Origin: Naegleria gruberi
Lineage: Eukaryota
Length of the DNA stretch: 64,000 nucleotides
NCBI GenBank assembly: GCA_000004985.1
Contig: GG738896.1
Direction: 5' to 3' (one strand)
Position 1 is the stretch's first letter; each line of letters opens with the position of its first letter. The notes beneath the pieces were generated by a model. The model was not told the origin of the DNA. It did not search any database and saw only the letters and a list, made by a program, of their open reading frames with translations. Of this stretch, positions 8,801-64,000 are shown one piece after another. The position numbers and the translations under genes are program-made.

Positions 8801-10263
8801 GGTATTGGCATATTTATCTTGAACTAGACCGATAGCATACTCTGGAAGTGAAAACCAATAGCCAAATTTACCACCAATAGCTCTGTTTCCCTCAAAATAA
8901 TTCATTGCCTTTTGTTGTGTAAGAATTGTGTAAAATTAAGGAATTACTTACATTGGTAATCCAGAAAACTGATACATCGTTATCTGTAGGTATTATTTGA
9001 AGCGGGTCTGAATCGATAATTGGTAAAACTTTAGCTCCCAAATTATTTTTGAACAAGTTGTACATTTCTGATCCATTTTCCAAGAAAAAGGCATGTCCAT
9101 TGATATTATAACAAACATTATTCTCAATTTGAATATAATTTGAATCATGAACAGTGATACATCTTTGATAAGAATTATAAATACTGTTATCCTTTAGAAT
9201 AAAAGGTTTGACAGTAGAGTTCAATGCCTTATCTCCTAATAAGTGAAAGTGAATTGAATAACGTCCCATTAAACCCTTTAAAATATAATTGTTAATCATT
9301 ATAATTCAATAGAATAAACTCACCTTTTGTCCCATTCGTCTCAATTCCACACCAACCATTTCGAATTGTTCAACAAGACGAATGATAACATGACCACCAA
9401 ATGAAGAAGAAGCACTGGATACATCCCCTTCAAACACAATATTCCTATTGAGTTTGGCAACTTCTCCTCTTGTAACTCCACTTGCATAGTGAGTGAACAA
9501 GAGTGTTTGGTTGACTATAAAAGTAGTCGAGTTAATAATTGAAACAATGGTTCTTTCCTCACTCTGATCAGGAAATGGAACACCAACTCGCCAAGTTGGA
9601 AGGGTGACTTTAGTTTTATCTAGAAGTTCTCCGTAATCTGTCGAGGTCAATAAGATGGAATCGCCAACTTTCCAATTGGTTGGAGAACGAGTCTTGATAA
9701 TGGTTGTTCCTTTGACGGCACTTTCAGCCAATTCTACCCAAGATAAACCATCAACAGAACCAACGATTTGAATGAAAGAACCTGAACAAGATGTAAAATT
9801 CATTCAAATGTCAAAACTTACCTGACATGGCAGCAAGACCTTTGGCTCCACCACTACTTCCATCAAATGGATCAATTCCAATAATATTGGAAGCAGTTCT
9901 ATTTCCATAGAAAGTAACCACAATTTTACCAGTAATTGGACAACTAGAGCTGCCAGCAATCAATTTACCTCCCTTGTCAACTCTAATAAATTGGAGAGTC
10001 AAATTTAAATTGACATTGTTAAATATCAAGCTTGCATTTTGTTGGACAATAATTCCATACAACAAAACACCAGGTGACTTATCCAAAAGCGTATTTTGTG
10101 AAATGGTAATGGTAGAATTGACCTTGTTCCAATCAGCAATCGAAGAAAACATTTTCAAGCCAGATTGTTGATGTGGACATTGACCAACTACCATCTTTAC
10201 ATTTCCAGCTACTAAAAACAAGATAGTTATTAGTAGAATAGTTTGTAAGAAACGGTTTAACAT
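5828..10263 (-). CDS. secreted G8-domain / right-handed beta-helix (PbH1) protein with C-terminal EGF-like repeats (CEMIP/TMEM2-like); four exons
   Basis: Exons on the minus strand are approximately 10263..9822, 9781..9324, 9275..8952 and 8908..5828. They are joined by GTAAGT/GTGAGT...AG mini-introns of 40, 48 and 43 nt at approximately 9782..9821, 9276..9323 and 8909..8951. Exon lengths sum to a multiple of 3, about 1434 aa. There is an N-terminal signal peptide (MLNRFLQTILLITILFLVAG). The G8-like signature is WKVGDSILLTSTDYGELL...RGEVAKLNRNIVFEG. PbH1-like repeats appear as SIYNSYQRCITVHDSNYIQIENNVCYNINGHAFFLENGS. The C terminus holds about 6 tenascin-type EGF repeats (CNGNGNCTAPFTCQCNQGWIGETC...). 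Confidence 0.7.
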
Positions 10264-14900: not shown

Positions 14901-17900
14901 ACTTTGGTTTCGTATTTATACGAAGTGAAGGCTGGAGTGTTTTATTACAAAAAATCAGGTTCTGTAATGGCACAATTTGAGAGCTCTAATCTATTGACCT
15001 TTTCTCCATCTGTTCCTATTCAAGCAACCATTCCATCTGATTATTTGAATGAAACAGTCTCATTCACATTTACAGTTATCAATAACAAGCAACAGAATAT
15101 CAGTTCAACTGTACAAATTCAAATTGTCTCCTCTGCAAGCCCACCAACACGACTGACAAACATAGTGGATGTTGTACCAACATATGGTATTTCAATGAGT
15201 GAAAAGTTTACAATTAAGGTTTCGGAGTGGGTTGCATCACCTGAACTGTTACCACTAAAATACGCTTTTGGATATTTTGATAAATCCAAGGCAGAAGCTG
15301 TGAGATTGACCGAATATGGTCTTAATACTACGTTTTCATCTTATCTACCTTATATTAGATCATCATCTAGCTCTAAGGCAAGAAGCATCTTGGAAGCTAC
15401 AGAGACAATTGCTTTGGTTGTCTTTGTACAAGACTCTCTTGGAAATGTCGAAACTGAAACGGCAGCTAATGTAACAGTATCTCCATTTAATGGAACTCAA
15501 GAGCAATATATTGAGGTTGTTAAATCTTTGAGCGGAGAATCACTATTGGTTGCCTCAGTGGATCAAACATTCACAAGCTTAGCATCATCATCATTGGTTT
15601 CAGCCCTCATTTCTAATATTGAAATTGATCCAAAGAATCCTTCTTCTTCTCTTTCCAGCTTGGAAACGCTCACGTCCAACAATGAAACACTCACAGCCAA
15701 TACAGTTACTCAGGTCATCAACAAATTGGATTCATTTATCTCCAATCTAACAGAGCTCTATTTAAGTGAACTTGCTCTATATGGCTATGTGAAATCCGGG
15801 ATGTCCAGTACAGACATTAGCAAAACAGTTCAAATTATTTCGAACTGTTTCTCTACTTCATATGATGCCGAAAAAACCAAATCAACAGCAAGTCTCGTCA
15901 CAGGTCTGATTTATTATGGAACTATTCCTTCTGTTGTAGACACAACATCCACAGAATTACCAACAACCTCTTACAAATCAACTTCTATTAACATTACTGT
16001 TTCTAGTTTCAACATGCCAACACCGAGTACGAATCTACAATCAGTCTCAGATACTGAAAGCAAGGTAGCAATGAATTTGACATCTATTTTGTCCAAATAT
16101 GGTGCCTATTCGACAACATGTGGTGCAACAATGATAATTTATTCAAAGAACACTAATTATGATTCCTCTGTTAGTAACATGACTATCAGTTCCTCTGTTA
16201 CTGACTTTAAATTCATGAGAAAACTGGATATTTTAGTATTGAAAAATTTGGATTCACCGCTCATACTTTCCTTCAATGCAGCCACAATCCCAAGCTCAGT
16301 GATCGCCAACTCCACAGTTACCAACAGTACGTATCATTGTAAGTATTGGGATGAGAGTCTTAAATTGTGGAGCAGCAATGGATGTTTATTGAATAGAGTT
16401 TCATCAAATTCAATTGAATGCGCTTGCTCTCATACAACTATGTTTACAACTTTCCTTGAATCCAAGACCACAGCACTTACTGTTCAACTCAAGGATCAGG
16501 TTTCGTCTTTATACTATGCCCAAATATCATTCGGTATTATTTACTTGATTGCCGCCAGTGCTATTTTGGTTGGATTGATTGTTTTGAGAAAATCGCAACC
16601 TGTTAGCTCTAGATTACTGACTCCATATGTTGGTTTGATTGCCTTAATTGTGGAATGTACATTGATTTACATAGTACAAAGATCTGTTCTCGTTGATCAA
16701 TTGAACTCTGCCAATACTCAAATGTGGGAAAATGGAGATACTGCTGCCAACATTATTGCAAACATTGTAATGATTATTGTAAACACTCTCAATTTAACTG
16801 CCATTTTCTGTTACGTCATGCAAGTTTTCAGATTCCAATTCATGAAATTGCTTTACAAGAAACTTTCTGATAATAGAACTCAAGCTCAAAGTGCAACAGT
16901 TTTGAAAGTATTGAAGTATACCACTTCTCAAATATTATTTTATTCATTGATTGGAATTTTTACTGCCCTAAATATTGCCTATTGGGTTATTTGGGTCATT
17001 CTGAGAAGAACTGGAGTTCTCACATCAACACAGTACACCTATGTTGTATCCCTTTCTTATACGGTTTGCATTTTGGCATTTGGTTTGATAATTACTGCTG
17101 TTGCAATCCTTGACATGATTCTCTCCTCAAAGAAGGAAGTTGAGCAAAAGAAAAATAGAAGAAAAGCTATTAACTTTTCACAACCAACCAGCAACTTTAG
17201 TCTTGATAATGCTGAAAATGTACATGAAAAGAAGAAAATTAATAGGAATGTATTCTTGAATGCTTTCAATTGGTTTACATCAATGGATGGACCACTCTAT
17301 TTCAGAATGGAAATGTTCATTTATATCGTGTCTTTCATTTTGCTAATATTGAATCAAGTTATTGGATTGAGTAGCTTAGCATACAGATTTGAGAGTTTGA
17401 CAATGTTTAAACTTGCTTTGACTTTTGATTCCATTTCCTTCATCTTTGAGGTACTCTATGTGGTCTCATATATTTTAGTATTTGGTGGTTATGCACTCAT
17501 TGTCGCAATCATTTACAAGGTTAGACAACGTAGAACAAGAAAGGAAGAACAAAAGAAACAAAATGAGGAAATTATGAATCAAGAACTTTACAATACTTTG
17601 GAATCTGAAGAAGGTTATGAACTCTTTGCCAACTTTTGCGAAAAAGAATTCAGTTCAGAAAATCTATTCCTCTTCTCTGATATCAAAGCAAGTCCAGATG
17701 TGGCCTCTGGTGAAAATCTAGGAGGATTACTCTTCTTTGCTGAGAGAATTTATGAAAAGTACATCAAGACAGGTGCAGAAATGGAAGTTAACATTCCATC
17801 AAAGAGTAGAACTGCTTTTGTCCAACTCTATGAAAAATGTAAGAAAGTTGAAACAAACTCTTCATTGGAATTATTAGATTCTAATTCTCTAGCTAAATCT

Positions 17901-31352: not shown

Positions 31353-31426
31353 GCAGCGATAGATCAGTTGGTTAGATCGTAAGCCTAACACGCTTAAGGT
31401 CGCGGGTTCAAGCCCCGCTCACTGTA
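31353..31426 (+). tRNA. tRNA-Val (anticodon AAC)
   Basis: Cloverleaf: acceptor GCAGCGA/TCACTGT (G1:U72 wobble plus one A:C mismatch), D-arm GATC-AGTTGGTTA-GATC, anticodon arm TAAGC-CTAACAC-GCTTA, variable AGGTC, T-arm GCGGG-TTCAAGC-CCCGC. It is followed by the T-runs CTTTTGCTTTTG. Confidence 0.7.
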
Positions 31427-37039: not shown

Positions 37040-38008
<969 letters not shown>

Positions 38009-39906
38009 AAAATCTAAGGAATATTGGAAGTATTACATGTGATTTTCTTATTATTATGTTATTAAACATCAAAACCTTTCTTTTGCAGTATGCAAAAAAT
38101 GAAGGAACACTAGGTGAAAAACCAATGATTCGGAGTTTGTTGATTTTCAACATGGTTTCACATCATCAAATAATGAAACCAACACATCATCATCTGGACA
38201 TCATCTAAGTAATAGTATTTGTGGAATTTTTAATTATTGGATTATTATCATTAAATTGGAAATGTTTTTTCAAGTTGAAAGTTTTATGAAATGGATTACC
38301 ATCATAAAGCATACCAACCATCCATATGGTGCCATTCATCATCAAAATATAATAGTAATGGTTGTGGAAATACATCTTGTAATAGTTAATAGATTCAATT
38401 TTTATAAATAAATATAATTTTTATTATATATAATATATATATTATATATAAAATCATCATCACTGGTCGATCTAATGGGAAAGATGGAAAACCAGCAATC
38501 TATCATTGTTCGGAATGATGAATAATAGGTTATGCAAATTTCTCCAGTGACTTTGTACCAAGAAATCATAGTATTAGGTTCATGTCAAATTTCACAATAT
38601 GTGCATGTGCCGTAGCTCAACATGTACTTCACCAACTTGGAAAATTTCTTCGAATAGTATTGTTCAAAATGACCTCCAACAACATTGTCATTATCGAATT
38701 TTTGATTTGATTGGTGGTTATGGAGATGAGAAAATTTCAAAATTTCCTTCATCAATTATTGGCTTGATTTCTCAAATTAAATCAACCAATTATTTACAAC
38801 AACACTATCATAGTATTAACAATAAATATTGTTAATAGTTTTTCTTCAATTTTTTTGAAATTTGCCTTAATTAAGATTTCTAAAATTTTATTAAGAATTG
38901 TTTCATTCAATTTTTATCCCACAAGCAATTATACAATGAACTGTAGATATATTGAATATAATAATTCATTCATTGAAATTTGCAATTCTAATCATGCAGA
39001 AACAGTTCTTAATTAACAAGTAGATCTACTGTTTCCCATGCATGATCTTGTTATTGAGTATGTACAGGAAAGTTCTAAACGAAACATTGGATGAAACTAA
39101 GGAATCAACAAAGTTTTTAAATTTTCCGTAATCTTTCTCTTCACGTTATCTAAAAAGAAGAAGGAGTTAGTCCAACTTCTTCGCTGGCATGATATGCCGC
39201 TATTCATTGATTGGTTTCTTGTTAAATTCATTGTAAACTAAACTAATGTTAGACAATGTCCCAAACACAAAACAATCAAGAAATCAAATGACAGTAAACT
39301 TCTTGTGGGCACTCAACTTACCTTCTTGGTACTGTTTTAATATGCCACCAAATAAATCCACATACATAAACTCACCATTTAATCGCTTTCGAATAATTAT
39401 TTGTTGCCAATGTTGGTTTATTGCATGTTGCATCTCTCGAAAATTTACTGAAACAAACGATTAATTGATTTATGGCAGTGTCCACTACTACCAAAAGACA
39501 AAACGCAGTTTTTGCTGATTGTTGACTGCTTGCTTTCTAATAATGCCGTATGAGCAAAACGATACCAAATGTGAAACTACTCCTTTCGAATAATTGCCTT
39601 CTCAAAGGTAACGTTTGTCATCAATCCTCATTTAAACCTCAATGGTAAGGTCCACCAAGCTTTTAAATGACTTATTTCTGACAAGTAGTGCGATACCTCA
39701 TGAAGCAACGTTTCGCTTTTTGTTACCCAAACATGAATTTAACAAAGGTTGTTGAGGGAGCGAAATGTTGTTTCGACCAGTTTCTTGTAAGTTTCGTATA
39801 TTTGTTTTTGCTTCAAATGTACCTCTCAGCAAGCGAAAACGCAAATTGTTGAAGTAAAAAACAAAACAATTCACAATCCACACTCTCTTCAAAGGAGACG
39901 AAACTT

Positions 39907-41433: not shown

Positions 41434-41594
41434 ATTTTTGACTTGATTTAGTTCTTAATTGGATCACATGGTGGTGCTTGTTCGAAGGATTACTTTGTAA
41501 CTTTCTTCAAATAAATTTGCTAATATGGAATTTATGCGAAGGAAGAAAATGTATTCTCATCAAAGAACAATTCACAATCACTAACAACATGAAT

Positions 41595-41665
41595 GCGTCG
41601 ATGGTTTAGTGGTAGAATACGGCGTTGCCATCGCCGTGACCCGGGTTCAATTCCCGGTCGACGCA
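41595..41665 (+). tRNA. tRNA-Gly (anticodon GCC)
   Basis: Perfect 7-bp acceptor stem GCGTCGA/TCGACGC, D-arm GTTT-AGTGGTA-GAAT, anticodon arm CGGCG-TTGCCAT-CGCCG, T-arm CCGGG-TTCAATT-CCCGG. It resembles the usual eukaryotic tRNA-Gly-GCC framework and is followed by TTTTTT at 41674. Confidence 0.85.
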
Positions 41666-41673
41666 TGAATTAT

Positions 41674-42260: not shown

Positions 42261-42323
42261 CGCCCACCGTGGCACGACCATAAGGTTAAGAGCCTTGCGC
42301 TCTGCCGACTGAGCTAGACGGGC
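42261..42323 (-). pseudogene. tRNA-Lys(CUU)-like pseudogene lacking the T-loop
   Basis: Minus strand reads GCCCGTCTAGCTCAGTCGGCAGAGCGCAAGGCTCTTAACCTTATGGTCGTGCCACGGTGGGCG. The acceptor, D-arm and anticodon arm (loop CTCTTAA) are intact apart from one mismatch. About 10 nt of the T-arm (GGTTCGAGCC-equivalent) is missing, so no T stem-loop can form. The 3' acceptor strand GGTGGGC still pairs with the 5' strand. Confidence 0.5.
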
Positions 42324-48993: not shown

Positions 48994-51919
48994 TTATTGT
49001 TGTTCTTGTTTAATTTTCTTTGTTGGAGGTTCATTGCTAGCTGATGCTTCTGCTGGTCTACTGTTTGGTTTCTGATCTGATAGGATGCCATATTGTAAAA
49101 GGGTTTTGAGTATTTGTTCAATTGCTGTCGAGAGTGATTTCTTAGATTCTGGACTTTTAAGAACTTTGGTCAATCTTAATGTTTGTGGAGATCCTCTGTT
49201 CAATATAATAAAATAGGTCATAATTACAATTAGTTGGTAAACTTACTTTTTGATGGTTTCCTTTTCAATGTCAATTGCATTTCGCAAGATTTGTTCGACG
49301 TGCTTCCTTGACTGTTGCTTTTCCTTAAAATTAAAAACAGTTTCAGAAGATTCTATAAATTGCTTCACTTTCAGACAACTATTGCATGTACAAGTAACAG
49401 GAATATGTGTAAATTTCCACTTGTTGGTATCACCCAAATTGAATTCTGTAAGGGATTCATTTGTTGAATTAGCAGCATTGTGTAATAGCTTGTAGCTATG
49501 ATCCAAAATGATTCTAAATCCTGATCCAGTCCAGAAACATTCATTTCCATTATTTTTGGCTAGTCCTTCAACCAATTCATACATATTATTTGTCGAATAA
49601 TTTTTGTTTGCAACAATAGCCTTTGAGATATTCATCTCATCTTCAGTTTTTCCAAGCTTTCTACATAATGTCAATAACTTTACACTGTTAAGTATAGAAA
49701 TATCCTTCTTTTGCATTTCTAATATTGCTTCAAACAATTTACTAGCCAAAAATTGTTCTTCCTTTCCATCCTTTACCAATATATTTTCCAAAACAGAAAT
49801 CAATGAAGGCATATTCTGGGGTCTTAATGTTGATAACGATTGGGAGAGAAGTGGAGAGATTTGTTCCAATCCAAAATGCTTCATAACTGGTATACATTGT
49901 TCAACATTAGCAATGGTAATAGAATATGAGCCAAAAGCAGTCTTGAAAACCTTAGGGCATAATTCAATTCTATTCAATCGGATGATAAGGTCGGCAGAGA
50001 AAGATGTATTATCATTCTTAAGGGATGCATTTACGAATTGGGTAATTTTTTCAGAGGTGGAGGGATACTTGTCCTTGATTCCTAAAAGCAAAACAATTGC
50101 ATCCGATTTGATTCCATAATAAGTGGAAGCAGCTATCATTGGAATATTTGATATAAATTTTTCAATCCATGTTGGTTCCTCTAATTCTAAAACCAAAGAT
50201 GCTATTACTTCAATTTCAGATGAAGTACTATATGAATGCTTGAAACATTTTTCAATATACTTATCAAATAAAACCTTAAAATTCTCAACACCATGATGTT
50301 TGATTAATGTGGTAGCTATTTTAGCCTCTTGTATATGTCCCAACCCTCCACCAAGCCATAATCTTTCTATAAACTTTAAGCTCAATGGCAAATAGGACAG
50401 AGCTATACAAGCTTCAAGAATATCTTTAGACTCAATATTATATGTGGAATTACATTCAGAATCTTCAGAACAAGTAAGTTTTGATGATGTTAGGGCCATT
50501 AGCAAACGTCTCGTATTTTCATGAGGGTTTTGTTTGAATTTTTCTAAAAGTTCTGTAACTTTGTCTTTGTGTTCCAAAGATTTCAATTCGTTTGGAATCA
50601 TAATAATACAAGCACTTTTGTACCATCGTTCAATCGTAGCTCCCTCATTACCAGTTGTTTCAATCTATTTAGTTTTGGTAAAGTTGTTACAAATTATTGA
50701 AACTTACATCTCTATTTTCTTCTGGCATGCTTCTTCTTACATCATCTGGAAAGATTTCATCCTCCATCAAATGAATTTTCTGATTAATTGGTTGTCCAAC
50801 AACATGACCTTGATAATACAATTTGGTTTCTTCAATATCCCTTACAGTAGATCCACAGGATCTTTCATGCTTTTCCAAAATTGCCAAAGATGTTTCCACG
50901 TTTGGTATTTGTTTAAGTAATTGATATATGGCTTCATCTTTGCCTTTTAGCAATTCAGGAGTTAAACCAGCAGTGGAATATTTGTGGTCCATAACATAGC
51001 AAAGCTTGGAATACATTGGTGCTTCTAACCATGATTTTACAATGGTCTCAATTTGTTTCAATTGAGTATCACTATCAAAAGCTTGAATTTTGTCGGCACC
51101 AGAGTATACCAAATTATAAATCAAAGCTAATCTATATCCAGATTTAACAGTCTCAACCTTATGTGAAACATCACAATAAAAGCTCACATAATATGGATTA
51201 AAAGTTGCATCTTCCGAAGTCTTGTAAATATTTTCTTTTTCTTTATGTCTTACAACTATTTCACCTCCTGTGAAAGAGCTTGGCAATTGAACAACTAGAG
51301 TGGCAATCATACCATTTTCCTTCTCAGTATCTCTATGAAAATCAAAGAATCCTCCTTCTTCATATAATAACATTTTGTAAAGAGAAAATCCAATTTTCTT
51401 TTCTTGTGCAATTCCTAAATCCTTTTTCACATTATTATTAACCAAATCCTCAATTAAACTATTCCACTTTGGATTTGTTATTTTAAATCTCTGTGGATCC
51501 AATTGCCATGATTTTCTAACAGACTCATCATAAATAGTTTTATCCAATCTTCCAAATGGGCTCATTGAGCAATTTTTAATCAAGTCCTTAGCTTGTTCCT
51601 CATAAATTATCGGAAGTGGCAAAGGCTTATAAACTCCTGATTCTTGTAAAATTTCAATAGCAGGTATTGAATATTCAGCACTTAATTTTCCACCAGTTGA
51701 AAAATCACCACTTCTGTCTGTGCTATTCATCACTTGTATGAGTTGTTTTTTAATATTTACTTCGGGAAGTGATTCCGCAATCGTTTCACGGATGATGATA
51801 GGAAGAGAAGCTACTGGACCTTGTCTAGTGTACTCTTCTTCCGAATCATAGGAACATGCGTAATCATCAGAATCATCAGAATCAAAGAAAGTTCTTTGAG
51901 CACTTTGTCGGTTGCCCAT
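48994..51919 (-). CDS. N-myristoylation-motif (MGNRQS) 2OG-Fe(II) oxygenase domain protein with a long alpha-helical C-terminal region; three exons
   Basis: Exon 1 (~51919..50688) carries the HxD...H...R oxygenase motifs FHRDTE, CDVSHKV and SGYRLAL. A 43-nt GTAAGT...TAG intron (~50645..50687) joins ...EENRD to IETTGNEGATIERW... in frame with ORF 49243..50601. A 51-nt GTAAGT...CAG intron (~49195..49245) joins ...ETIKK to GSPQTLRLTKVLKSPESKKSL...KKIKQEQQ, and the stop is at 48994. Confidence 0.6.
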
Positions 51920-52027
51920 TTTTTTTTGATTTTTTTTTAAATAATAAATAATGCGTTAATCTGCTTCAAACTGTTAATGTGATCATATTTCTTTTAACTT
52001 GATTGTAATCATTGGAACTGGATTGCC

Positions 52028-52679
52028 TAGACGGTGGGCAGTGCCATGTATTCGTTGTTCCAACCAAATTTTTTTAGAGTCGAGGCCAATTTATAAATAT
52101 TTTAATATTATTTATTCTTCTGATGATATTCTGATCCGCTGGTAGTATCGTCTTGGCAAATTCTTGGAAAGCTTTTGGAGTTTATGGTTTGATGGTTGGT
52201 ATTTCATCATCAACAGGATTTCCTCTTTTTGTTGCCAATTTCTTGGTTTCTTTGTTGGGTTGGAGATTTAGATGTAAGAAGAAGATTCCACCAGTCAAAG
52301 AAACTTCCTGATGATGGATGGGTTGTTGTATTAATTTTCTAGCCAACTGCCATGTTGTTCAGTTGCTTCCAAATACCAGCTTGTGATTGGACATTGTAGC
52401 CAGTAGACAAAATCTCTTAATTTTTTTAAATTTTAATTTAACGGTTTTTAATCAGCCAAATGTCAAAGCAACGGATCTTCTGTGGCTCGACTTGTAAATT
52501 TTTTTGTCTGACCCGGCTCGACTTGTAAAAATTTTTGTCTGACCCGGCTTGACTTGGAAATTTTTTAGCCTGACCCGGCTCGACTTGGAAATTTCGCAAG
52601 TTCTGCATAAAATGCCTCTGGCTCGACTTTGAAATTTTTACTCCCTGACCCGGCATTTTACATCACTGACCACCGTCTA
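52028..52679. mobile_element. non-autonomous TIR DNA transposon (MITE, hAT-like by 8-bp TSD), 652 bp
   Basis: The left end is TAGACGGTGGGCAGTGCCATGTA (52028..). The reverse complement of the right end is TAGACGGTGGTCAGTGATGTA (..52679). The element is flanked by identical direct repeats GGATTGCC at 52020..52027 and 52680..52687. It has no coding capacity and contains an internal tandem array. Confidence 0.6.
52478..52640. repeat. tandem repeat (~31-36-bp unit, 4-5 copies) inside the MITE
   Basis: Units GGCTCGACTTGTAAATTTTTTTGTCTGACCC / GGCTCGACTTGTAAAAATTTTTGTCTGACCC / GGCTTGACTTGGAAATTTTTTAGCCTGACCC / GGCTCGACTTGGAAATTTCGC... / GGCTCGACTTTGAAATTTTTACTCCCTGACCC. Confidence 0.6.
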
Positions 52680-52799
52680 GGATTGCCCATAAATTCAGTG
52701 TAATGGAATGGCCGTTGCTTTCGAATATCTTTATTTTTAAATCCAACAGTGTTTTTAAAGGAATATAAAAATGATTAAGGGTTTCTTACGTGGATTATT

Positions 52800-54932
52800 T
52801 TAAAATATTGCCTCATACTTATTTTTGACTTTTTCGTGCAATGAGTAAATGAATGAATTAAGTGAGAGATCTCCATCGTCATTTTGAATATCAATTTGCA
52901 TACTTGTAATATAGAGAATTACATTTCTTTCTAAATAATCATCCATAAATAATAAAAAGCCCAATAAATAGACTTTTTGGACCTGTTTGTCGTTAATCAC
53001 AGGAGAAAGGAAAAAGTCAACTTCACCACCTAATTTTTTAAGGTATTTGGCGAATAGATTATCTGAAATATCTATATCAATAAAATAGAATATTCCAACC
53101 ATAATCAAATACATGATGTGTGTATCTGTTTCTAACCCATTGATGGCGTCGCATACCTTCTTAGGAATTGGTAAACCAAGTCTCAAGCATTCAGCTAATA
53201 AACAACTCAAATTCCATCTATTTTGTGATGGATGGTCACAACATGTCTCAAGTAAAAGATATATATTTGATGTAGAATCCACGAGTGGCGGAAATTCATG
53301 ATATATTCTATTAGCAATAATTATTTCAGCTAACATGTCAGCAGGTAAATACACCCGAGGTTTGTAATAATCATATATAAATGGAATCAAATCACTTGAT
53401 AATTGTTCCAGAATTTCTCTTCTCGACTGAGAAACAGTGTCTTCCAATAATAGCTTAATTGAAGACTGACAAAGGGCTAATTGTGTCACAAGAGGAATAG
53501 AATTTTCCTTACGCTGCTTAATAGCATCAAAATATCCAGGTAGAACTATTGCAGATAAATAGGAAAAACCTCTTTCACGAATGAACTCAATAATTTCTTC
53601 CAAATATTTAGTATTTTCAAGTTCGTGAATATATTTGGTTGCCTTGTTTAAAATAATGGACAAAGAATAATCTAGATCTATATCAGCTAAATAGTCCTTA
53701 TAGGTAATAATGAAGATAAATAGCGATAATACATCATTAGTGCTCTCTACTTGGAAATTGTAAGCTGCCATCATCATTGAATCTTTCAAGACGTTACAAT
53801 CCTCTACAGTCAGCTCGGCAGTAATAGAAGCCATACGGATGGTTAAAGATTTGTTAAATGCATTTTGAATGATAGGTTGGGGAATATCGCTTCTGCAACA
53901 TTTGAGACACAAAGCTAGAGATTCTATTCCCCCTGGAAGTTCACAGAATGTAACCAATAGCATTGCAGATTTTCTAATTTCCAAAGTCTCTGTTTCATCT
54001 CCAATTATGGAGAAGAGATCAGGAATAAACATTTTAGGCTTAAGTTTAAATTTGATATATCTCATAAAAGATAAAATACCAATCATTCTTTTCGATCTCG
54101 ATTCATTTCTTTCCATGTATTTGAGTTTCTCTAATTCTAATGTTACTAATTTGTGGTAATAATCTCCAAAATATGACACAGCTTCAGGGTAACAATCTAG
54201 ATTAGTACAATGTTCATACATTAACTTGAACAATTCAAATTTGTCAATTTGTTTCAGTGGATGAATTCTAATACTATCATCAAGTAATCGCCTCTCTAAT
54301 TCTATCATGAATCTCTCAAACATTGACTGTTCAGATCCTCCCCATGTTGGACACAATGATTCATCACTCCAATTTCTCTTCTCATAATGAATCAAAAACA
54401 ACAAGAAAGTTTCCAGAAAATCATTCAAAGACAATTGATGAATCACTTCAAAAGTAAACAGGGAATATTTAAATATCCAGCTTGGAACCACTTCTTTAAA
54501 TTTAAACAGTGAGTCAATCACTAAACAATTTCTTTCCGAACTTGTTTCCATGTAGGATTTCATCAACATCTTCGGAACGTCTCCATGATGATAATTAAAC
54601 TCTTCATCCACTTCCCGATCATATAGAGCAATTACTTTAAATAAATTGGCTAAATCATCCTCTCCAAATGACAATTCTTCAAACACTTCTAATACTTCCT
54701 TTTCCTCATTTCCCAATTCATCAGATAATTGTGCATAGGTGATGTAAATTGTTTCCATGACATTTTCAAAATTACCATAATAATCACCCTGTTCAAGGAT
54801 AAACTTTAGGAGAGTGTGAATATCTGGTGGGAGTGGTAGTTTCATTTTTTTTTCGAAATTCAATATTTTTTCAATACTATTGAAAATAATTATATTTTCT
54901 AATTGAATATTCTTTTGTTGGAATTTCCACAA
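52800..54932 (-). CDS. hypothetical protein (710 aa), no recognisable domain
   Basis: Uninterrupted ORF with coding-like composition. It is Leu/Ile/Phe-rich and largely helical-looking. No motif identified. Confidence 0.45.
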   Translation of the reverse strand: MWKFQQKNIQLENIIIFNSIEKILNFEKKMKLPLPPDIHTLLKFILEQGDYYGNFENVMETIYITYAQLSDELGNEEKEVLEVFEELSFGEDDLANLFKVIALYDREVDEEFNYHHGDVPKMLMKSYMETSSERNCLVIDSLFKFKEVVPSWIFKYSLFTFEVIHQLSLNDFLETFLLFLIHYEKRNWSDESLCPTWGGSEQSMFERFMIELERRLLDDSIRIHPLKQIDKFELFKLMYEHCTNLDCYPEAVSYFGDYYHKLVTLELEKLKYMERNESRSKRMIGILSFMRYIKFKLKPKMFIPDLFSIIGDETETLEIRKSAMLLVTFCELPGGIESLALCLKCCRSDIPQPIIQNAFNKSLTIRMASITAELTVEDCNVLKDSMMMAAYNFQVESTNDVLSLFIFIITYKDYLADIDLDYSLSIILNKATKYIHELENTKYLEEIIEFIRERGFSYLSAIVLPGYFDAIKQRKENSIPLVTQLALCQSSIKLLLEDTVSQSRREILEQLSSDLIPFIYDYYKPRVYLPADMLAEIIIANRIYHEFPPLVDSTSNIYLLLETCCDHPSQNRWNLSCLLAECLRLGLPIPKKVCDAINGLETDTHIMYLIMVGIFYFIDIDISDNLFAKYLKKLGGEVDFFLSPVINDKQVQKVYLLGFLLFMDDYLERNVILYITSMQIDIQNDDGDLSLNSFIYSLHEKVKNKYEAIF

Positions 54933-54966: not shown

Positions 54967-56736
54967 TTAAAGAGCTAAATACAAAACCACCATCAAACTC
55001 CATCCAAGAGAGAAAATATAACCAATGGATGAAGAAACATTGAGTCTTGTTGAGGTTTTACCCTTAGTAGATGTTGCTGCACTTCCACCACCTCCAGTTC
55101 CACCTCCATTTCCTCCAGTTCCACCACCTCCATTATTTGGAGTGCTCGCAACTGGATCAATCAATGGATTGTACTTGTTACAGAACCCAGTTGAACAACA
55201 ATAGTATCCATTACAACTTGATGAAAGAATGACACCGTACTCATAACGAGTTTTCTTTGCATTCACATCTTCAAGAGAACACTTTGAAGTCACAGCTGTG
55301 CAGGTATAAGAACGACGATAGCAATTATAGGAACCAGCAGATGGCAAAGTAATGATACTATTTCTTGGCATACCTTCTCCAAAGGCAAAATCTCCAACAT
55401 AGCAAGTCAAATTTCCTTTGAGTGGTTCGTACTTGTTACATTTAGAGTTCTTGCAACAGATTGGATCCAAATAATTGAAATAGTCCTTTTGAGCAGCAGC
55501 ACATTCAGAATCTGTTGCTGTGAAGTAAATGGTCTTGATTGTTGATTTGGAAATCTCATTGGCAGAGCAGTACTTCTTCCACATTGGATTGGAACAAGCA
55601 TATGAATGTCTAGCACAATTCTTAATACCATACATTTCAATAGATTTAAAAGTATCTGGTTGAGTAGAGTTATAGATATTGGTAGTGTTATAACAATCAA
55701 CAGAGTATGGTCTATTACAACCCGCTTCATAACAACAACTTCCCTTTGAACATGTTCCATATGTGAAATAGGGTTTTGAGACACCTTGTGCAATCTCGGA
55801 CGGTGAGCAATCCTGTTGCTCAATAGAACAATTTCTTGGAATTGTTAGACAATACAATTCATTAGCAGGAAATAATGTATCTTGAATCATTGGTTTCAAT
55901 TGAGCAGTTTCAGGGCTCATACCAACATAGCATGTTTTTGGTTGATTGCATCCATCATAGTAACAACAATTGGTAAAAACTGAACAATCAGTCTGATTCA
56001 TATATCCATAACTTTGACGACGATCACAATCTCTATTGGAACATGACCAGCTATTATAACAAGAATAGGCATTCTCATCATATGGAGATTCTTTCACATC
56101 AATTGATCTCAATTCAGTGTCTGATATGCCACTATAACATTTCACAGTTGGTGGTTTGTTACATTTTTCACCTTTACAACATGTAGCATTGGCAATTTCT
56201 GAATAATACTTATAGTTTTCACAATCTTGTTTGGTAGCTACACTGGAGACATGATATGTCGTTCCAACAGGAATTTTACGATCTGAACAGTACGGATTAT
56301 AGGAAGCACATTTGTTTTCATATTGTGAACAAAAGTTATCACTACTATTCGAAACGAAAACGAGTTCATAATTTTGTTGACCATAGAAGCCAAGTCCTGA
56401 ATAACACCAGAATCCATCAGATGGTAAGTTAACTGGTTCATTACAAAGTGGAGTGGTACAAATGGTTTGATTATTATCTGGATAGAGAGGATAGAGTGAA
56501 GATGTGGAAAAGTAAACCCATTTGCTGATATCTGCTTTGAATTCTTCAGTTGTACAGGTAAACCTGTAGCTACTGCAGGGAAGATAAGCTTTGGTGCAAT
56601 ATTTGTCATATTTGTCAACTTTTTCGGTGGTGTCTGTGCGAACATTCAAGCCAGAGCCATAGTAGCAGCGAATAGCAAAAGTTTCAGCTATTTCGAATAA
56701 AAGTATGAGAAGTATTGCAATTTGAAATAGTCTCAT
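54967..56736 (-). CDS. secreted Cys-rich modular surface protein with predicted GPI-anchor signal; modules end in a CCxxxCN(K/R/Q)P motif (Ly6/uPAR three-finger-like)
   Basis: Signal peptide MRLFQIAILLILLFEIAETFA. There are about 7 modules ending CCKGEKCNKP, CCYYDGCNQP, CCYEAGCNRP, CCKNSKCNKY, CCSTGFCNKY. The C terminus is a Gly-rich linker GGGGTGGNGGGTGGGGS followed by a hydrophobic tail IGYIFSLGWSLMVVLYLAL. Confidence 0.55.
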   Translation of the reverse strand: MRLFQIAILLILLFEIAETFAIRCYYGSGLNVRTDTTEKVDKYDKYCTKAYLPCSSYRFTCTTEEFKADISKWVYFSTSSLYPLYPDNNQTICTTPLCNEPVNLPSDGFWCYSGLGFYGQQNYELVFVSNSSDNFCSQYENKCASYNPYCSDRKIPVGTTYHVSSVATKQDCENYKYYSEIANATCCKGEKCNKPPTVKCYSGISDTELRSIDVKESPYDENAYSCYNSWSCSNRDCDRRQSYGYMNQTDCSVFTNCCYYDGCNQPKTCYVGMSPETAQLKPMIQDTLFPANELYCLTIPRNCSIEQQDCSPSEIAQGVSKPYFTYGTCSKGSCCYEAGCNRPYSVDCYNTTNIYNSTQPDTFKSIEMYGIKNCARHSYACSNPMWKKYCSANEISKSTIKTIYFTATDSECAAAQKDYFNYLDPICCKNSKCNKYEPLKGNLTCYVGDFAFGEGMPRNSIITLPSAGSYNCYRRSYTCTAVTSKCSLEDVNAKKTRYEYGVILSSSCNGYYCCSTGFCNKYNPLIDPVASTPNNGGGGTGGNGGGTGGGGSAATSTKGKTSTRLNVSSSIGYIFSLGWSLMVVLYLAL

Positions 56737-56984
56737 TTTTTTCTTGTTGTGTCATAAAGAATGGTGAACAAAACCAATTTAACCCATACAAACAGTTGAC
56801 AGTTATGGACAAATATGGATTATCTTAATTGTCAGCCACATTGGCTTAACGAAATCTCATTGAAAAGTTACTATCTCTTGGTCTTCTTCTACATCAACAA
56901 CCAAGTGTTTCTGTAGTACTTCCTTGTGCAAATAACTGTAACAAGACATATCAATAATAAATTAATTCCCTTTGATTGTGATTT

Positions 56985-57957
<973 letters not shown>

Positions 57958-58254
57958 AATCTGATTTTAATCTTATAAATCATCACTAGACAAAATATGA
58001 ATTGATTTGCCTTAATTGAACTTTTGATCCTAAAATTTCAGAAGGGAACGTGTTTAGTCCCAACACTGCAAAGTTCATACGAATAGTATCCAAAAGTTCG
58101 TAGAATTGATTTGTTATTTTAATGTTCTCCAGTGGTGATGATAAGGAAAACATTGGTTTTTGATAAAGGTGGACCACTCGGAAGAAAAAGGAAAGTCTCA
58201 ATGAACTCATTTCCGATATCATAATTAGATAACATTGTTTTGTATTTTTCTTAA

Positions 58255-60120
58255 TTGTTGTATCAAAAATTGGCGCCAAATTGTATTACAAGTTTTTTAA
58301 ATAGAAAAAAAATGTCATCACAACAAGTAAGCAACAAGGAAGGAAGCGAATATGATCATTTATTGAATAGAAGGTTTGAATACAACATTGCCAAACAACA
58401 AGTGAAAAGTGAAGACAATAATACAACAACTGCAGCAACATTTGAGGCATCCAATTCTCTGTATGCTCCTGCATCGAGTAGAAGCGATGTTTCAAGAGGG
58501 TTTGTGAGGTTTATCGGAAAGATTGATCAAGCTAGTTCTCAACTTTTTGTTGGTGTTGAATGGGATTATGAAGAGAGAGGCAAACATGATGGTGAATTGA
58601 ATGGGGTTAGATATTTTGTCACAAGTACTGGAAAGAAGAGTGCTAGTTTTATCAAATTAGAAACCTTCCTTAGATTCTCCAGTCTAGGAATTGATTTCAT
58701 GCAAGCTGTTTCTGGAAAATACAAGAATAAGGACTTTAAGGAAGAGGAAATGTTCATTTATTCATCAAGCAAAAAGACTCAAATTTCTGTGGAATTAGTT
58801 GGACGACAAGACCTTGAATCAAAATTGGAAAAGATTGAAAAGCTCACAGACCTAGGATTGCAAGATTGTAAAGTGTCATCTATCGAAAAGGGAATTGGTG
58901 CTAACTTTGAAAATGTGAGAGGAATTGATCTTTCAGCCAACCTCATTGAAACATGGTCACAAGTTGAAACTCTTTTGGAGGAATTTCCAAAGTTGACAAA
59001 TTTAATTATTTCATCAAACAGATTCTCCCAAGTGGTAGTTAGCAAGGGTAGAACCTATCCAAACTTGAAGATGCTTGTGGTTAATGATGTGTCGTTTGGA
59101 TGGAAAACTTTTGTGGAAGAAATTTTACCACTCTTCCCTAACATTGAGGAAGTTCACTTTAGAGACAATAATGTGACCGATGAAGATTTGAAATCATCTC
59201 AATTACCAACTTTGTCATCAATTCAGTCATTGAATCTTTCAGGAAACAAAATTGCAAACTGGGATGCTGTTTGGAATTCTTTCAGTAACTTTGCAACATT
59301 GACAAGATTGCTTTTGAACTATAATGCCCTCTCATCTGTTAAATTCATGAAGGAAGGTGGATTCTCTTCTCTCAAGAGTATTTCCGTAGCCAGTAATAAG
59401 ATTGAAGAGTATGATTCTTTGAATGAACTCAACAATATGCCACTCTTGGAAGAATTGAGATTAGAAAGTAATCCAATTCAAGAAAAGTATGGTGTCAACA
59501 ATGTAAGACAATATGCTGTGGCTAGAATCAGAGGATTAATCTCCTTCAATGGCAGTGAAGTAAGAAAGAAGGAAAGAGAAGATGCTGAAAAGTACTACTT
59601 GAAGCAATGTGGAAGAGAAAAGACAAGTAATCCTTCACTCGAAATTACCACTCTCCATCCAAGATATAATGAATTGGTGAAAATCTACGGAGACCCATGT
59701 GAAGCTGATAATGCCAATCAAGGAGTAACCAAGGTTAGCAATGAATTTGTCGTGTTGAACATTAAGAATGTAGCTGCATCTGTAGTTTCATCCTCACAGG
59801 GTCATGTTGTGGAGAAGAAGATTCCGTATGGATTTACCATTCAAAAACTCAAGTTAATGTGTCAAAGATTATTCAAACTTGAGGCCTCCAAGCAAAGATT
59901 ATTCTACATTGATGTTGGCCACTCGCTTCCAGAACCACTTGGTGATGACTTTAAAGATATTGATTTTTATGCTGTTAAAGACGGAGGCACAATCATTATG
60001 GAAGAAATTGATGAATTTGCTCAACAAAAAGAGGAAGAATTAAAGAGAAAAGAAAGAGAAAGAACCATCAAGGAACAGGAAGAGCAAGTCAGCCGTGAGT
60101 TGAGGTGGAAGCAATTGTAA
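58255..60120 (+). CDS. tubulin-specific chaperone (folding cofactor) E-like: CAP-Gly + LRR + C-terminal ubiquitin-like domain
   Basis: CAP-Gly region GFVRFIGKIDQASSQLFVGVEWDYEERGKHDGELNGVRYF. LRRs include IDLSANLIETW and LNLSGNKIANW. The probable start is MSSQQVSNKEG at ~58312. Confidence 0.7.
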   Translation: MLYQKLAPNCITSFLNRKKMSSQQVSNKEGSEYDHLLNRRFEYNIAKQQVKSEDNNTTTAATFEASNSLYAPASSRSDVSRGFVRFIGKIDQASSQLFVGVEWDYEERGKHDGELNGVRYFVTSTGKKSASFIKLETFLRFSSLGIDFMQAVSGKYKNKDFKEEEMFIYSSSKKTQISVELVGRQDLESKLEKIEKLTDLGLQDCKVSSIEKGIGANFENVRGIDLSANLIETWSQVETLLEEFPKLTNLIISSNRFSQVVVSKGRTYPNLKMLVVNDVSFGWKTFVEEILPLFPNIEEVHFRDNNVTDEDLKSSQLPTLSSIQSLNLSGNKIANWDAVWNSFSNFATLTRLLLNYNALSSVKFMKEGGFSSLKSISVASNKIEEYDSLNELNNMPLLEELRLESNPIQEKYGVNNVRQYAVARIRGLISFNGSEVRKKEREDAEKYYLKQCGREKTSNPSLEITTLHPRYNELVKIYGDPCEADNANQGVTKVSNEFVVLNIKNVAASVVSSSQGHVVEKKIPYGFTIQKLKLMCQRLFKLEASKQRLFYIDVGHSLPEPLGDDFKDIDFYAVKDGGTIIMEEIDEFAQQKEEELKRKERERTIKEQEEQVSRELRWKQL

Positions 60121-60156
60121 AAATATTCTTTTTTTATTTAAATAATTATTTAAATT

Positions 60157-63100
60157 GTGAATGAAACTGAAATTAAAACTGTCACCCATCACCAGCTAAC
60201 AAAAATCATCATTAAAAAAATGAGTCTTCAATTCAATGCCCGTAAGGCCATCGAAGTCCTTGCAGACAATGAAGGAGAATCAGCCACTCGTGAAAAGTTG
60301 AAAATTCTCAACCAACTGTCAACCATTCCCAATGTCAACATTATTCCTGTTGAAGTTCTTCAACTTGTTATTCAAATTTTAGGAGAAACAGAAAATAGAA
60401 TGATCATCAACTCTATCCTCTCTGCCATCCAACATTTAGCTTCTTTTGAAAGAACTAGAATGTTACTCGGAGATGACACCAATTGTATTCAATTATTGGT
60501 TCCACACATGTCTCAATTCAATTTTCCAAATATTCAATCTGGTGCTTTGGATGCAATGGCAGAATTATTGAAAGGTAGCAAGAAGAATCAAGAAAATTTA
60601 GTACAATATGTTTCTGAATTTTTCAATCCATTGATGGGTATTATTCAGAGAGAAAATGATGCAACTACAAAGAAGGCATTTGCTGTTTTGGATTCCCTGT
60701 TTGAAAATCCTATTTGTGTTCATGCTGTTTTCGGTGATAAGGATAGATATGATGAATATTTGGAACCTTTGATTATTTGTTTGCAAATTGAGAATAACAG
60801 ATTGGTTTTACAATGGGCTTTACAAACAATTGAAAAAGCTTGTAGACAAAATCAATTATATGCTAAACATTTACTTGATATTGGTATTATAGATTCATTG
60901 GTTCAAATTATTTTGGATCCAAGACATGTCAGTGCCCAATCGGTTAAAATTAGTGCTTTGAATGCTCTTATTCATTGTGTGAAATATTCAAATGAAGCTG
61001 GTTTATGGGCAGGTGAATCAGGAATTGTTGAACCTCTCATTGAAATCATGTATCATACTTCACTTGAATTGAACTCTTCAAATATTTCACTTTCTTATGC
61101 TCAATCTAACGAAACACAAGATTTGAGAGAAGCTTGTTTTGAATTGGCAATGAATTTGACAAACTTTGAAGCTGGAAGAATTCATGCTCGTATGATTAAT
61201 TCAACAACAATTATTTCAAGTAGTGATATTGACTTGTCAGCAGATAATCCAACCACTCCAAAAGAAGAAAAACAAGTCAAATTGGATAAATTAGATGTAG
61301 ATACCAAGATTCTCAATCCATACTTTGATGAAACTGAAGAAAAGAAGGAAAATATCGATATTTTATCTGAAAATAAGAAGAAATTCATAACACATACCAA
61401 TGGTTTGAATGTTCTCTTTGCCTACATTGGTCAAGAAGAACCAAATGAAAAGTCTGATTTGAAATACAAAAAACACGTCAAACAGATTAGAAAGATGGCC
61501 ATTATGATCATTTCAAACATTTCCACTATTGCCGAGAATGGTGTCACCATCTTGTCAAGAGAACAAAAATTATTGAGCTTTGACCATCCAATGAACATTG
61601 TAGACTTGCTATTGGACATTATCATTCACAAGAAGGAACACGAAAAGGATAGCACCAAGTCCAAGAGAAGAATCGACGATGGAAAAGATTTTAAACTCGA
61701 CATGAAACAATGTATTATTAATGCTATGGGTTCTTTTGCCTTACATGACGATTGTATTCAAAAACTAGGAGAAATGGGTGTTATTAAACGTCTATTAAAG
61801 ATGATTGATGAAAGGAATGAAGCTGCTGAAATTGCCAAATTGCTAGCCAAGATGTGTGAACACAGCAACTTCCAAAAGGTTCTATTCGAGGAAGCTGGTC
61901 TTGCCAGAGTCATTAAATTATTGGAAGCTCAAGATAATCCAGAGGATAGATTGTCCGGTTTAATGATTTGCTTGCCTCTTGCTTCAAATCCAAATGGTTG
62001 TGTTGCCTTGTCACGTGATGGCATTGATAAGAAGATCAGAGATATTTCAAAGAGAGAAGTCGTATTCGAGGAAGTGAGAAAGATGGCTAAACAAGTCATT
62101 AAGGTATTCAAAGAGAATAACAAGTCATCACTTCGTGCAACTAAAGCAGCTGTTGGTGGTTCTGATGAGAATGGTAAACCAATTAATAATATGAACATAT
62201 TCAAGTTCAACTATGAACAAGTTGCAAGAATTGACAAGGAATTTGTCACACTTTGTGAAGAGAGAATTTGTTCCTTGTTGGATAATCCAAAATTCAAACT
62301 CCAAATCAATTGGCGTCAAGTAGAAAGATTGGGAGATATTAACTTCTCTGACGAGGCCATTACCTTGTTGGGCAGATTGGATTTATATGAGGAATTCTAT
62401 ATGGCCATTGAAGCATTTATTGAAGCTGCTGAGATTAATGCTAACATTTTCAATGCTAACGTTCCACTTGTTGTTTTGGAAGTCTTGCCACCTGTCAAGA
62501 AGGAAGAAAATTCAAAGAAGAAGGACGAAGAAGAGGAAGAAGCCGTTCCTTGTGAATTGGAAATTGGAGATTTGATTATGAAATACAAATTATCTCCTGA
62601 TGGTATTTTGTGGACTCCTAAACAATTGGCTGGTCTTATCAGTTATGAATTGTTGGGTTATGACATTATTGAATTGAATGACATGTTGATTGGTGATGGT
62701 GAAGAAGATCGTGATGACCAATATGAACTCGGTGTTGATCAGCTCAAGAAGATTTGTAGAGACTCTAGATTGGCACTTTTGGGTGATATCAATCTCTTGT
62801 ATTTCCATATTGAAACAACTGATTTGTTATGGAAGGCAGGTTTTGCTGAATCCCAACAAATTGTTGCCTCAAAGAGTGTTATTTCAGATGAGGAATTGTT
62901 TATTAAGGGTTGGCGTATTCTCAAGATGAACAAGGATGGTATGCTTCAAGAGAGAATTCTCCTCCTCACCAATACCTCTTACTATACTGTTTGTTTTGAT
63001 CCAAAATCAAAGAAGATTGACTACAAACACACCAAGCATCACAATATTGAAGATTACTTCTTGTGTGATGTTGGTAAAATTGTCAAATCACGTCACGACA

Positions 63101-63726: not shown

Positions 63727-64000
63727 ATATTAAACACGATGAAGAAATAAATTTATAAAATATGCCCAACACATCTAAAATCTATCATTTTACCAATGCA
63801 AGGTTCAATCATTACAAAATTAGTCTTTTCGAATTTACAATAGATTGCTTTGATTCAATTTAGTAAAGAGAATATCAGCAATTCTGTCATACCCCTGTGG
63901 TGTAAAATGCAAACTATCATCCCAATACATATCCTTTTCCTCATCGGTACATTTACAAAAATTCAATTCTTCCATCAAGTCCACAAAAATCATCTTTTGA

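What the first reader, a model, noticed from the sequence alone, without database searches (positions are those of the whole stretch)
52020..52687. 652-bp MITE with 23-bp terminal inverted repeats, perfect 8-bp target-site duplication (GGATTGCC) and an internal 31-36-bp tandem array
Read directly from the sequence. The left terminus is TAGACGGTGGGCAGTGCCATGTA. The reverse complement of the right terminus is TAGACGGTGGTCAGTGATGTA. Identical 8-bp direct repeats GGATTGCC abut both ends. An 8-bp TSD with short TIRs is the hallmark of hAT-superfamily elements. The element has no transposase ORF, so it is non-autonomous. It carries 4-5 tandem copies of a GGCTCGACTTG(T/G)AAA...TTTTTGTCTGACCC unit. 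It sits in the intergenic space between two convergently oriented genes. It is the only recognisable mobile DNA in the window and would reveal which autonomous transposon family is active in this genome.
Basis: seen in the sequence. Interest (0 to 1): 0.6.

Follow-up and report, generated by a model that had tools for sequence, protein, structure and literature searches.

The report
Small non-coding DNA transposon insertion
A 652-bp piece of non-coding mobile DNA, with inverted-repeat ends and a duplicated 8-bp target site, sits between two genes of a Naegleria-like amoeba; it is an ordinary "cut-and-paste" transposon relic, probably of the hAT type, though that family could not be proven from one copy.

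Summary
The structure is real and lies exactly where reported. The element spans 52028-52679. Its inverted ends are 23 and 21 nt (20 of 21 aligned bases plus a 2-nt gap). A perfect GGATTGCC abuts both ends. There is a 31-bp tandem array next to the right end and no ORF longer than 72 aa. In 200 dinucleotide shuffles no 8-bp direct repeat had adjoining inverted ends better than 13/16, against 15/16 here. Removing the element leaves a 220-bp gap, close to the window's median of 252 bp. The host is an intron-poor heterolobosean near Naegleria.

The best reading is a non-autonomous cut-and-paste DNA transposon, most likely hAT. The evidence for hAT is the 8-bp duplication, the short TAG... inverted ends and the asymmetric subterminal repeats.

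Superfamily membership is not shown:
- There is only one copy in the window.
- No transposase relic was detectable.
- No related copy was found in any searchable collection.
- The target does not fit nTnnnnAn.
- Because the duplication reads GG....CC, 6-bp or 4-bp duplications with longer inverted ends cannot be strictly excluded.

This is a new member of a known kind and of low interest.

The parts
52028..52679 (.). Whole element, 652 bp, 38% G+C, no ORF over 72 aa
   Evidence: Single copy in the window.
52020..52027 (.). Left copy of the target-site duplication GGATTGCC
   Evidence: GGATTGCC occurs only twice in the window, and both copies abut the inverted ends.
52028..52050 (+). Left terminal inverted repeat TAGACGGTGGGCAGTGCCATGTA (23 nt)
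   Evidence: (pair I3); end alignment.
52077..52088 (-). AGAGTCGAGGCC, an inverted copy of the core of the repeat unit (GGCTCGACT), about 50 bp in from the left end. The right end carries AAAGTCGAGCC at the same distance.
   Evidence: (pairs I4, I16) and the alignment. Only the short core is shared. A whole-unit match at the left end is not significant.
52111..52360 (.). Internal segment, less A+T-rich (37% G+C), with short ORFs in several frames and no detectable homology
   Evidence: No Pfam, PDB or protein-database match in any frame or in stitched frames.
52484..52594 (+). Tandem array, 3.6 units of 31 bp. Consensus GGCTCGACTTGGAAATTTTTTTGTCTGACCC.
52620..52650 (+). Fifth, diverged unit GGCTCGACTTTGAAATTTTTACTCCCTGACC, separated from the array by 25 bp
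52659..52679 (-). Right terminal inverted repeat (reverse complement TAGACGGTGGTCAGTGATGTA, 21 nt). It contains CTGACC, the motif that also ends each repeat unit.
52680..52687 (.). Right copy of the target-site duplication GGATTGCC
50687..51919 (-). Neighbouring gene: 2OG-Fe(II) oxygenase, 410 aa. Its start codon is 100 bp from the left duplication copy.
   Evidence: PF13640, E = 9e-8; homologues up to 64% identity.
52800..54932 (-). Neighbouring ORF, 710 aa (681 aa from the first ATG), no family match. Its stop codon is 112 bp from the right duplication copy.

Best explanation
This is a non-autonomous, cut-and-paste (class II, terminal-inverted-repeat) DNA transposon. It inserted into a compact intergenic spacer of a Naegleria-like heterolobosean.

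Inferred mechanism:
1. A transposase encoded elsewhere in the genome recognised the 21-23-nt inverted ends. It probably also recognised the repeated subterminal motifs (CTCGAC...CTGACC): five direct copies inside the right end and one inverted core copy inside the left end.
2. It excised the element and joined it to staggered nicks 8 bp apart in the target AACT|GGATTGCC|CATA.
3. Gap repair duplicated the 8 bp.

Among known superfamilies this combination fits hAT best: an 8-bp duplication, short ends starting with TAG, and asymmetric subterminal repeats. I rate 'DNA transposon insertion' at about 0.85. The 0.55 below is for the full statement including the hAT assignment.

Shown: the anatomy, its non-random nature, the lack of coding capacity, and the normal size of the spacer once the element is removed. 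Inferred: mobilisation in trans, the role of the repeats as transposase-binding sites, and the superfamily.
For: - Ends and duplication lie exactly as reported.
- The 16-nt core and the 8-mer occur nowhere else in 64 kb.
- An 8-bp direct repeat with adjoining 15/16 inverted ends was never approached in 200 shuffles (maximum 13/16).
- Both ends share the terminal 21-23 nt and an AGTCGAG core about 50 bp inside.
- Five of the eight plus-strand CTGACC in the window lie in the element: one in the right inverted end and four at unit ends.
- No ORF is longer than 72 aa and there is no Pfam hit. There is no Rfam match.
- The inter-ORF gap is 880 bp with the element and 220 bp without it, against a window median of 252 bp.
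- Published hAT features: 8-bp duplications made by one transposase dimer, short imperfect inverted ends, and subterminal repeats bound by BED domains and arranged asymmetrically at the two ends (PMC10368747). Ac/Ds has short inverted ends plus subterminal repeats, and Ds elements share little internal sequence (PMC3260210).
- From memory, not tested: several hAT ends resemble this one, for example rice nDart TAGAGGTGGCC...
Against: - There is one copy only, so transposition is inferred from a single footprint.
- GGATTGCC does not fit nTnnnnAn, the Hermes preference given in PMC10368747.
- The ends begin TAGAC. This matches 4 of 5 positions of the hAT consensus YARNG, which I recall from memory.
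- No remnant of a hAT transposase was found. Six-frame and frame-stitched translations give no Pfam, PDB or protein-database hit.
- No related sequence turned up in viral, prokaryotic or (capped) metagenome scans.
- Other superfamilies also make 8-bp duplications.
Confidence: 0.55

Rival explanations
1. It is a non-autonomous DNA transposon of another superfamily that also makes duplications of about 8 bp. Candidates are P, Merlin, Mutator-like, Zisupton/KDZ, Novosib or an undescribed one. The mechanism is the same; the transposase differs.
For: - Duplication length alone does not identify hAT.
- The target does not match nTnnnnAn (PMC10368747).
- No hAT-derived internal sequence was found.
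- The duplication lengths of these superfamilies are from memory.
Against: From memory, not tested:
- Mutator-like elements usually have 9-11-bp duplications and long inverted ends.
- P and Merlin ends have different terminal motifs.
- TAG...GGTGG-type ends are common in hAT.
Confidence: 0.25
2. The element is 654 or 656 bp with ends (C)CTAGACGG..., and the true duplication is 6 bp (GATTGC) or 4 bp (ATTG). The outer G/C bases match only because the target happened to read GG....CC. This would point to a superfamily with short duplications.
For: - The inverted repeat does extend 2 bp into the flanking 8-mers (pair I3: 52026-52043 / 52664-52681).
- The scan lists all three parses.
- All three give the same empty site, AACTGGATTGCCCATAAA.
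Against: My own estimate from base composition:
- Under an 8-bp duplication, a 2-bp extension of the inverted repeat needs only that the 8-mer's ends be complementary, about 0.08.
- Under a 4-bp duplication, four specific G/C bases must flank the site in a 34% G+C genome, about 0.001.
- This gives roughly 100:1 for 8 bp.
Confidence: 0.05
3. It is not a transposon. It is a resident intergenic region, with a repeat array acting for example as a regulatory or protein-binding minisatellite upstream of the oxygenase gene. Its bounding inverted and direct repeats would come from another process, such as site-specific recombination, or from chance.
For: - Single copy, with no relatives found anywhere.
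- The array lies about 570-730 bp upstream of the start codon of the oxygenase gene.
Against: - The inverted ends abutted exactly by a perfect 8-bp direct repeat are far beyond chance.
- The spacer has the normal size only if the element is removed.
- The nearest relatives' oxygenase loci carry nothing similar. They are too distant (68-71% nucleotide identity in the coding region) and not syntenic upstream, so this is weak evidence.
Confidence: 0.1

Closest known systems
Non-autonomous hAT elements and hAT-type MITEs (for example maize Ds1, rice nDart)
   Same: - 8-bp target-site duplication.
- Short imperfect inverted ends beginning TAG.
- Subterminal repeated motifs.
- No transposase gene, and internal sequence unrelated to any protein.
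- For Ds, PMC3260210 reports 11-bp inverted ends, subterminal repeats and heterogeneous interiors.
   Different: - No autonomous partner or second copy is known.
- The subterminal repeats form a regular 31-bp tandem array rather than scattered hexamers.
- The target does not fit nTnnnnAn.
- The host is a heterolobosean; my literature searches found no hAT MITE described there.
Hermes (house fly hAT transposon)
   Same: PMC10368747 reports 8-bp duplications, imperfect 17-bp inverted ends, and subterminal repeats that are transposase (BED domain) binding sites arranged asymmetrically at the two ends. Here there are five direct units at the right end against one inverted core at the left end.
   Different: - Hermes is autonomous and about 3 kb.
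- Its subterminal repeats are 4-bp AAG(T/C) motifs, not 31-bp units.
- There is no sequence similarity.
MITEs as a structural class (for example Arabidopsis Emigrant, rice mPing)
   Same: - Small and non-coding, with inverted ends plus a duplication, inserted close to genes.
- Subterminal repeated motifs bound by the partner's transposase are documented for Emigrant/Lemi1 (PMC1636448, title and abstract).
   Different: - Those families have 2-3-bp TA/TAA duplications and belong to other superfamilies (from memory).
- They are defined by high copy number, which is unknown here.

Membership tests
hAT superfamily (non-autonomous member) | 8-bp target-site duplication | tested here: met
   A perfect GGATTGCC abuts both ends. 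This is one copy only. 6-bp and 4-bp parses are possible but about 100 times less likely by my estimate.
hAT superfamily (non-autonomous member) | Short terminal inverted repeats (about 10-25 bp) starting with 5'-YARNG (consensus recalled from memory) | tested here: inconclusive
   The ends are 23 and 21 nt, with 20 of 21 aligned bases identical plus a 2-nt gap. They start TAGAC, which matches 4 of 5 consensus positions.
hAT superfamily (non-autonomous member) | Target preference nTnnnnAn (Ac/Hermes type; PMC10368747) | tested here: not met
   GGATTGCC has G at position 2 and C at position 7. This is a statistical preference judged on a single site, so it counts only weakly against membership.
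hAT superfamily (non-autonomous member) | Subterminal repeats that serve as transposase (BED domain) binding sites | tested here: inconclusive
   Repeated motifs are present: five units at the right end and one inverted core at the left. A whole unit at the left end is not significant. Binding cannot be tested here.
hAT superfamily (non-autonomous member) | Shares its ends or internal sequence with an autonomous element encoding a hAT transposase (BED finger, DDE core, hAT C-terminal dimerisation domain) | tested here: not met
   No transposase-like ORF or relic is present in the element. None of the window ORFs over 150 aa that I scanned hits a transposase family.
MITE (structural class) | Small (under about 800 bp), non-coding, with inverted ends and a flanking duplication | tested here: met
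MITE (structural class) | Multi-copy, homogeneous family with different duplications at different sites | not testable with these tools
   - One copy in 64 kb.
- The source genome is not in the protein/contig collection.
- A 22-mer of the repeat gives 0 hits in viral and prokaryotic collections.
Other superfamilies with roughly 8-bp duplications (P, Merlin, Mutator-like, Zisupton, Novosib) | Their characteristic terminal motifs and transposase | not tested
This was considered from memory only.

The most novel reading that the evidence does not exclude
The element belongs to a transposon lineage not yet described. This could be a hAT branch specific to Heterolobosea or a new superfamily making 8-bp duplications. 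Its transposase would read a regular 31-bp tandem array at one end only, as an extreme form of the asymmetric end recognition seen in Hermes. The element may still be active in this Naegleria-like species.
Probability: 0.08. Interest if true: 0.45.

Novelty: new member of a known kind. Interest (0 to 1): 0.2.

Why it matters
It marks at least one past DNA-transposon insertion in a compact, repeat-poor heterolobosean genome. It also supplies end sequences that could be used to find the family and its autonomous partner in the full assembly. Transposons of Naegleria and its relatives are poorly catalogued: one study notes that only a small fraction of N. gruberi repeats could be classified (PMC12344493). 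The insertion sits 100 bp upstream of a 2OG-Fe(II) oxygenase gene and might affect its expression. Beyond that it is a routine annotation item.

Tried and rejected
1. **A hAT C-terminal relic.** By eye I read a possible remnant of the hAT dimerisation domain on the minus strand (FDWW ... LA ... IP ... F, about 52300-52130). A frame-stitched translation and all frames gave no Pfam hit even at E = 10. Against PDB only irrelevant weak hits appeared, with no Hermes match. Rejected as unsupported.
2. **Other copies via proteins.** I ran a pseudo-protein made of all six-frame stop-to-stop segments of at least 25 aa against 5.8 billion proteins. Nothing scored at E <= 0.001.
3. **Other copies via DNA.** The 16-mer TAGACGGTGGKCAGTG was too short. 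All were single, mostly G+C-rich, and did not extend beyond 19-20 nt. A 22-mer from the repeat junction gave 0 hits in viral and prokaryotic genome collections.
4. **Empty site.** Exact-protein look-ups of the four neighbouring ORFs found no record. The closest oxygenase loci (L138-L141) are only 68-71% identical at the nucleotide level in the coding region and not syntenic upstream. They are not informative.
5. **A second mobile element.** The 969-bp inverted dispersed repeat (37051-38011 / 56982-57948) turned out to be two polyubiquitin genes.
6. **Known RNA families.** None match in 51900-52820.
7. **An inverted full repeat unit at the left end.** Not significant: 111 of 500 shuffles scored as high. 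Only the short GTCGAG core is shared.
8. **Bacterial promoter and terminator scan**. Not applicable to a eukaryote.

Full report
**Observation**

- GGATTGCC at 52020-52027.
- Left end TAGACGGTGGGCAGTGCCATGTA at 52028-52050.
- Right end at 52659-52679, reverse complement TAGACGGTGGTCAGTGATGTA.
- GGATTGCC again at 52680-52687.

The element is 652 bp. The two ends align with 20 of 21 identical bases plus a 2-nt gap. The 16-nt terminal core is found only at these two places in the window, even with three mismatches allowed (expected 0.07). GGATTGCC also occurs only at these two places.

**Chance test**

I took every pair of identical 8-mers lying 50-3000 bp apart (10,887 pairs). For each I scored the 16 nt just inside them for inverted complementarity. 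This pair scores 15/16 and the next best scores 11/16. In 200 dinucleotide-preserving shuffles the best value was 11-13 and never reached 14. The structure is not a chance product.

**Anatomy**

- Tandem Repeats Finder reports a 31-bp unit, 3.6 copies, 88% matches, at 52484-52594.
- A fifth, diverged unit follows at 52620, after 25 unrelated bases.
- The array ends 8 bp before the right inverted end.
- Each unit starts with GGCTCGACTT and ends with CTGACCC.
- CTGACC also occurs inside the right inverted end. Five of the eight plus-strand copies of this hexamer in the 64-kb window lie in the element.
- The left end carries one inverted copy of the unit's core (AGAGTCGAGGCC, 52077-52088). It lies at the same distance from the tip, about 50 bp, as the last core at the right end.
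- A whole inverted unit at the left end is not statistically supported.

The two ends are therefore asymmetric: five direct units at one end and one inverted core at the other.

The interior (52111-52360) is less A+T-rich, but it holds no ORF over 58 codons stop-to-stop. The longest ORF of the element, 72 aa, merely runs across the repeat array.

**Context**

The window is from an intron-poor eukaryote with 34% G+C. Its genes encode EGF/teneurin, NHL, RGS, GATA, DUF4116 and polyubiquitin domains.

A tubulin-cofactor-E-like protein in the window is 55% identical to one in Naegleria fowleri and 49% to one in Willaertia magna. The host is therefore a heterolobosean near Naegleria (taxonomy). A 3.3-kb contig of an ENA metagenome (ERZ929261) is 99.4% identical to window 58175-60696. 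The genome itself is not in the searchable protein/contig collection.

Both neighbours of the element lie on the minus strand:
- A 2OG-Fe(II) oxygenase gene at 50687-51919 (PF13640; homologues).
- A 710-aa ORF at 52800-54932.

The genes are in tandem, not convergent. The element lies 112 bp past one stop codon and 100 bp before the next start codon.

The inter-ORF gap is 880 bp. Without the element and one duplication copy it would be 220 bp, next to the window median of 252 bp. This is what one expects if 660 bp were added to an ordinary spacer.

**Search for relatives**

- There is no other copy or fragment in the window.
- A general scan for inverted ends with flanking duplications finds nothing comparable.
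- The only large dispersed repeat is a pair of polyubiquitin genes.
- My first collection scan used a 16-mer, which was too short. A negative there is therefore weak.
- A 22-mer from the repeat junction has no match in viral or prokaryotic genome collections.
- A query made from all six-frame segments of the element found nothing among 5.8 billion proteins.
- The closest oxygenase loci from metagenomes are too distant and not syntenic upstream. They give no empty site.

Copy number, duplications at other copies and an empty allele therefore remain untested.

**Coding relic**

By eye, the minus strand of the interior can be read as a decayed hAT C-terminal dimerisation domain. Neither the single frames nor a stitched translation hits Pfam at E <= 10. 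Against PDB sequences only irrelevant weak hits appear. I do not count this as evidence. No Rfam family matches the region.

**Interpretation**

The anatomy is that of a non-autonomous cut-and-paste DNA transposon. Its inverted ends define the cleavage sites, and a staggered 8-bp cut in the target was repaired into a direct duplication.

The regular subterminal motifs are most simply read as binding sites for the transposase's DNA-binding domain. This is inference by analogy:
- In Hermes, BED domains bind short subterminal repeats that are arranged asymmetrically at the two ends, and one transposase dimer spans the 8-bp target (PMC10368747).
- Ac/Ds elements share short inverted ends and subterminal repeats while their interiors vary (PMC3260210).
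- For the Emigrant MITE, the partner's proteins bind both the ends and subterminal repeats (PMC1636448).

hAT is the best-fitting known superfamily. Membership is not shown, for these reasons:
- The single target does not fit nTnnnnAn.
- The tip matches the recalled YARNG consensus at 4 of 5 positions.
- No partner is known.
- Other superfamilies also give duplications of about 8 bp.

**A caveat on the duplication length**

The duplication begins with GG and ends with CC, so the inverted repeat extends 2 bp into it (pair I3). Two other parses are therefore formally possible:
- A 654-bp element with a 6-bp duplication.
- A 656-bp element with a 4-bp duplication.

All three parses give the same empty site, AACTGGATTGCCCATAAA. 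From base composition I estimate the 8-bp reading to be about 100 times more likely. Only further copies can settle it.

**Verdict**

It is a genuine transposon-type insertion, probably hAT, and non-autonomous. Its family and activity are unproven, and the stated gene orientation is wrong. It is a new member of a known kind and of low general interest. Its main use is as a probe for cataloguing transposons in the source genome.

Noticed in passing
window 37051-38011 and 56982-57948: Two polyubiquitin genes in inverted orientation, 91% identical over 969 bp, each built of 228-bp tandem ubiquitin units. This is the only large dispersed repeat in the window and it is not mobile DNA.
   Followed up: yes
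window 58175-60696; locus L142: A 3.3-kb contig of ENA metagenome assembly ERZ929261 (run ERR1078381) is 99.4% identical to this stretch. The same species is therefore present in that sample. The source genome itself is absent from the protein/contig collection.
   Followed up: partly
window 54967-56736 (minus strand): A 589-aa cysteine-rich ORF with a signal-like N-terminus, a glycine-rich stretch and a hydrophobic C-terminus. It has repeated modules ending in CC....CN, which from memory resemble Ly6/uPAR three-finger domains. No Pfam or NCBIfam hit.
   Followed up: no
window about 10080-10097 and 15255-15272: A perfect 18-nt inverted repeat (TATCCAAAAGCGTATTTT) 5.2 kb apart. The two arms lie inside a G8-domain ORF and the 2047-aa EGF/RGS ORF on opposite strands. 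It is probably shared coding sequence of paralogues. Not examined.
   Followed up: no
window 5828-10263 (minus strand): G8, CEMIP beta-helix and EGF domains are spread over three consecutive ORFs (9811-10263, 9306-9803, 5828-8905). This suggests one CEMIP-like gene interrupted by short introns.
   Followed up: no
window 42261-42323 (minus strand): A third tRNA-like match was found by Rfam only (37.9 bits) and not by ARAGORN. ARAGORN reports tRNA-Val at 31353-31426 and tRNA-Gly at 41594-41666.
   Followed up: no
L139 5861-5970 versus window 63869-63978: A 110-bp stretch is 82% identical between a distant relative's contig and the far end of the window. It lies outside the syntenic oxygenase region. 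Its nature is unknown.
   Followed up: no
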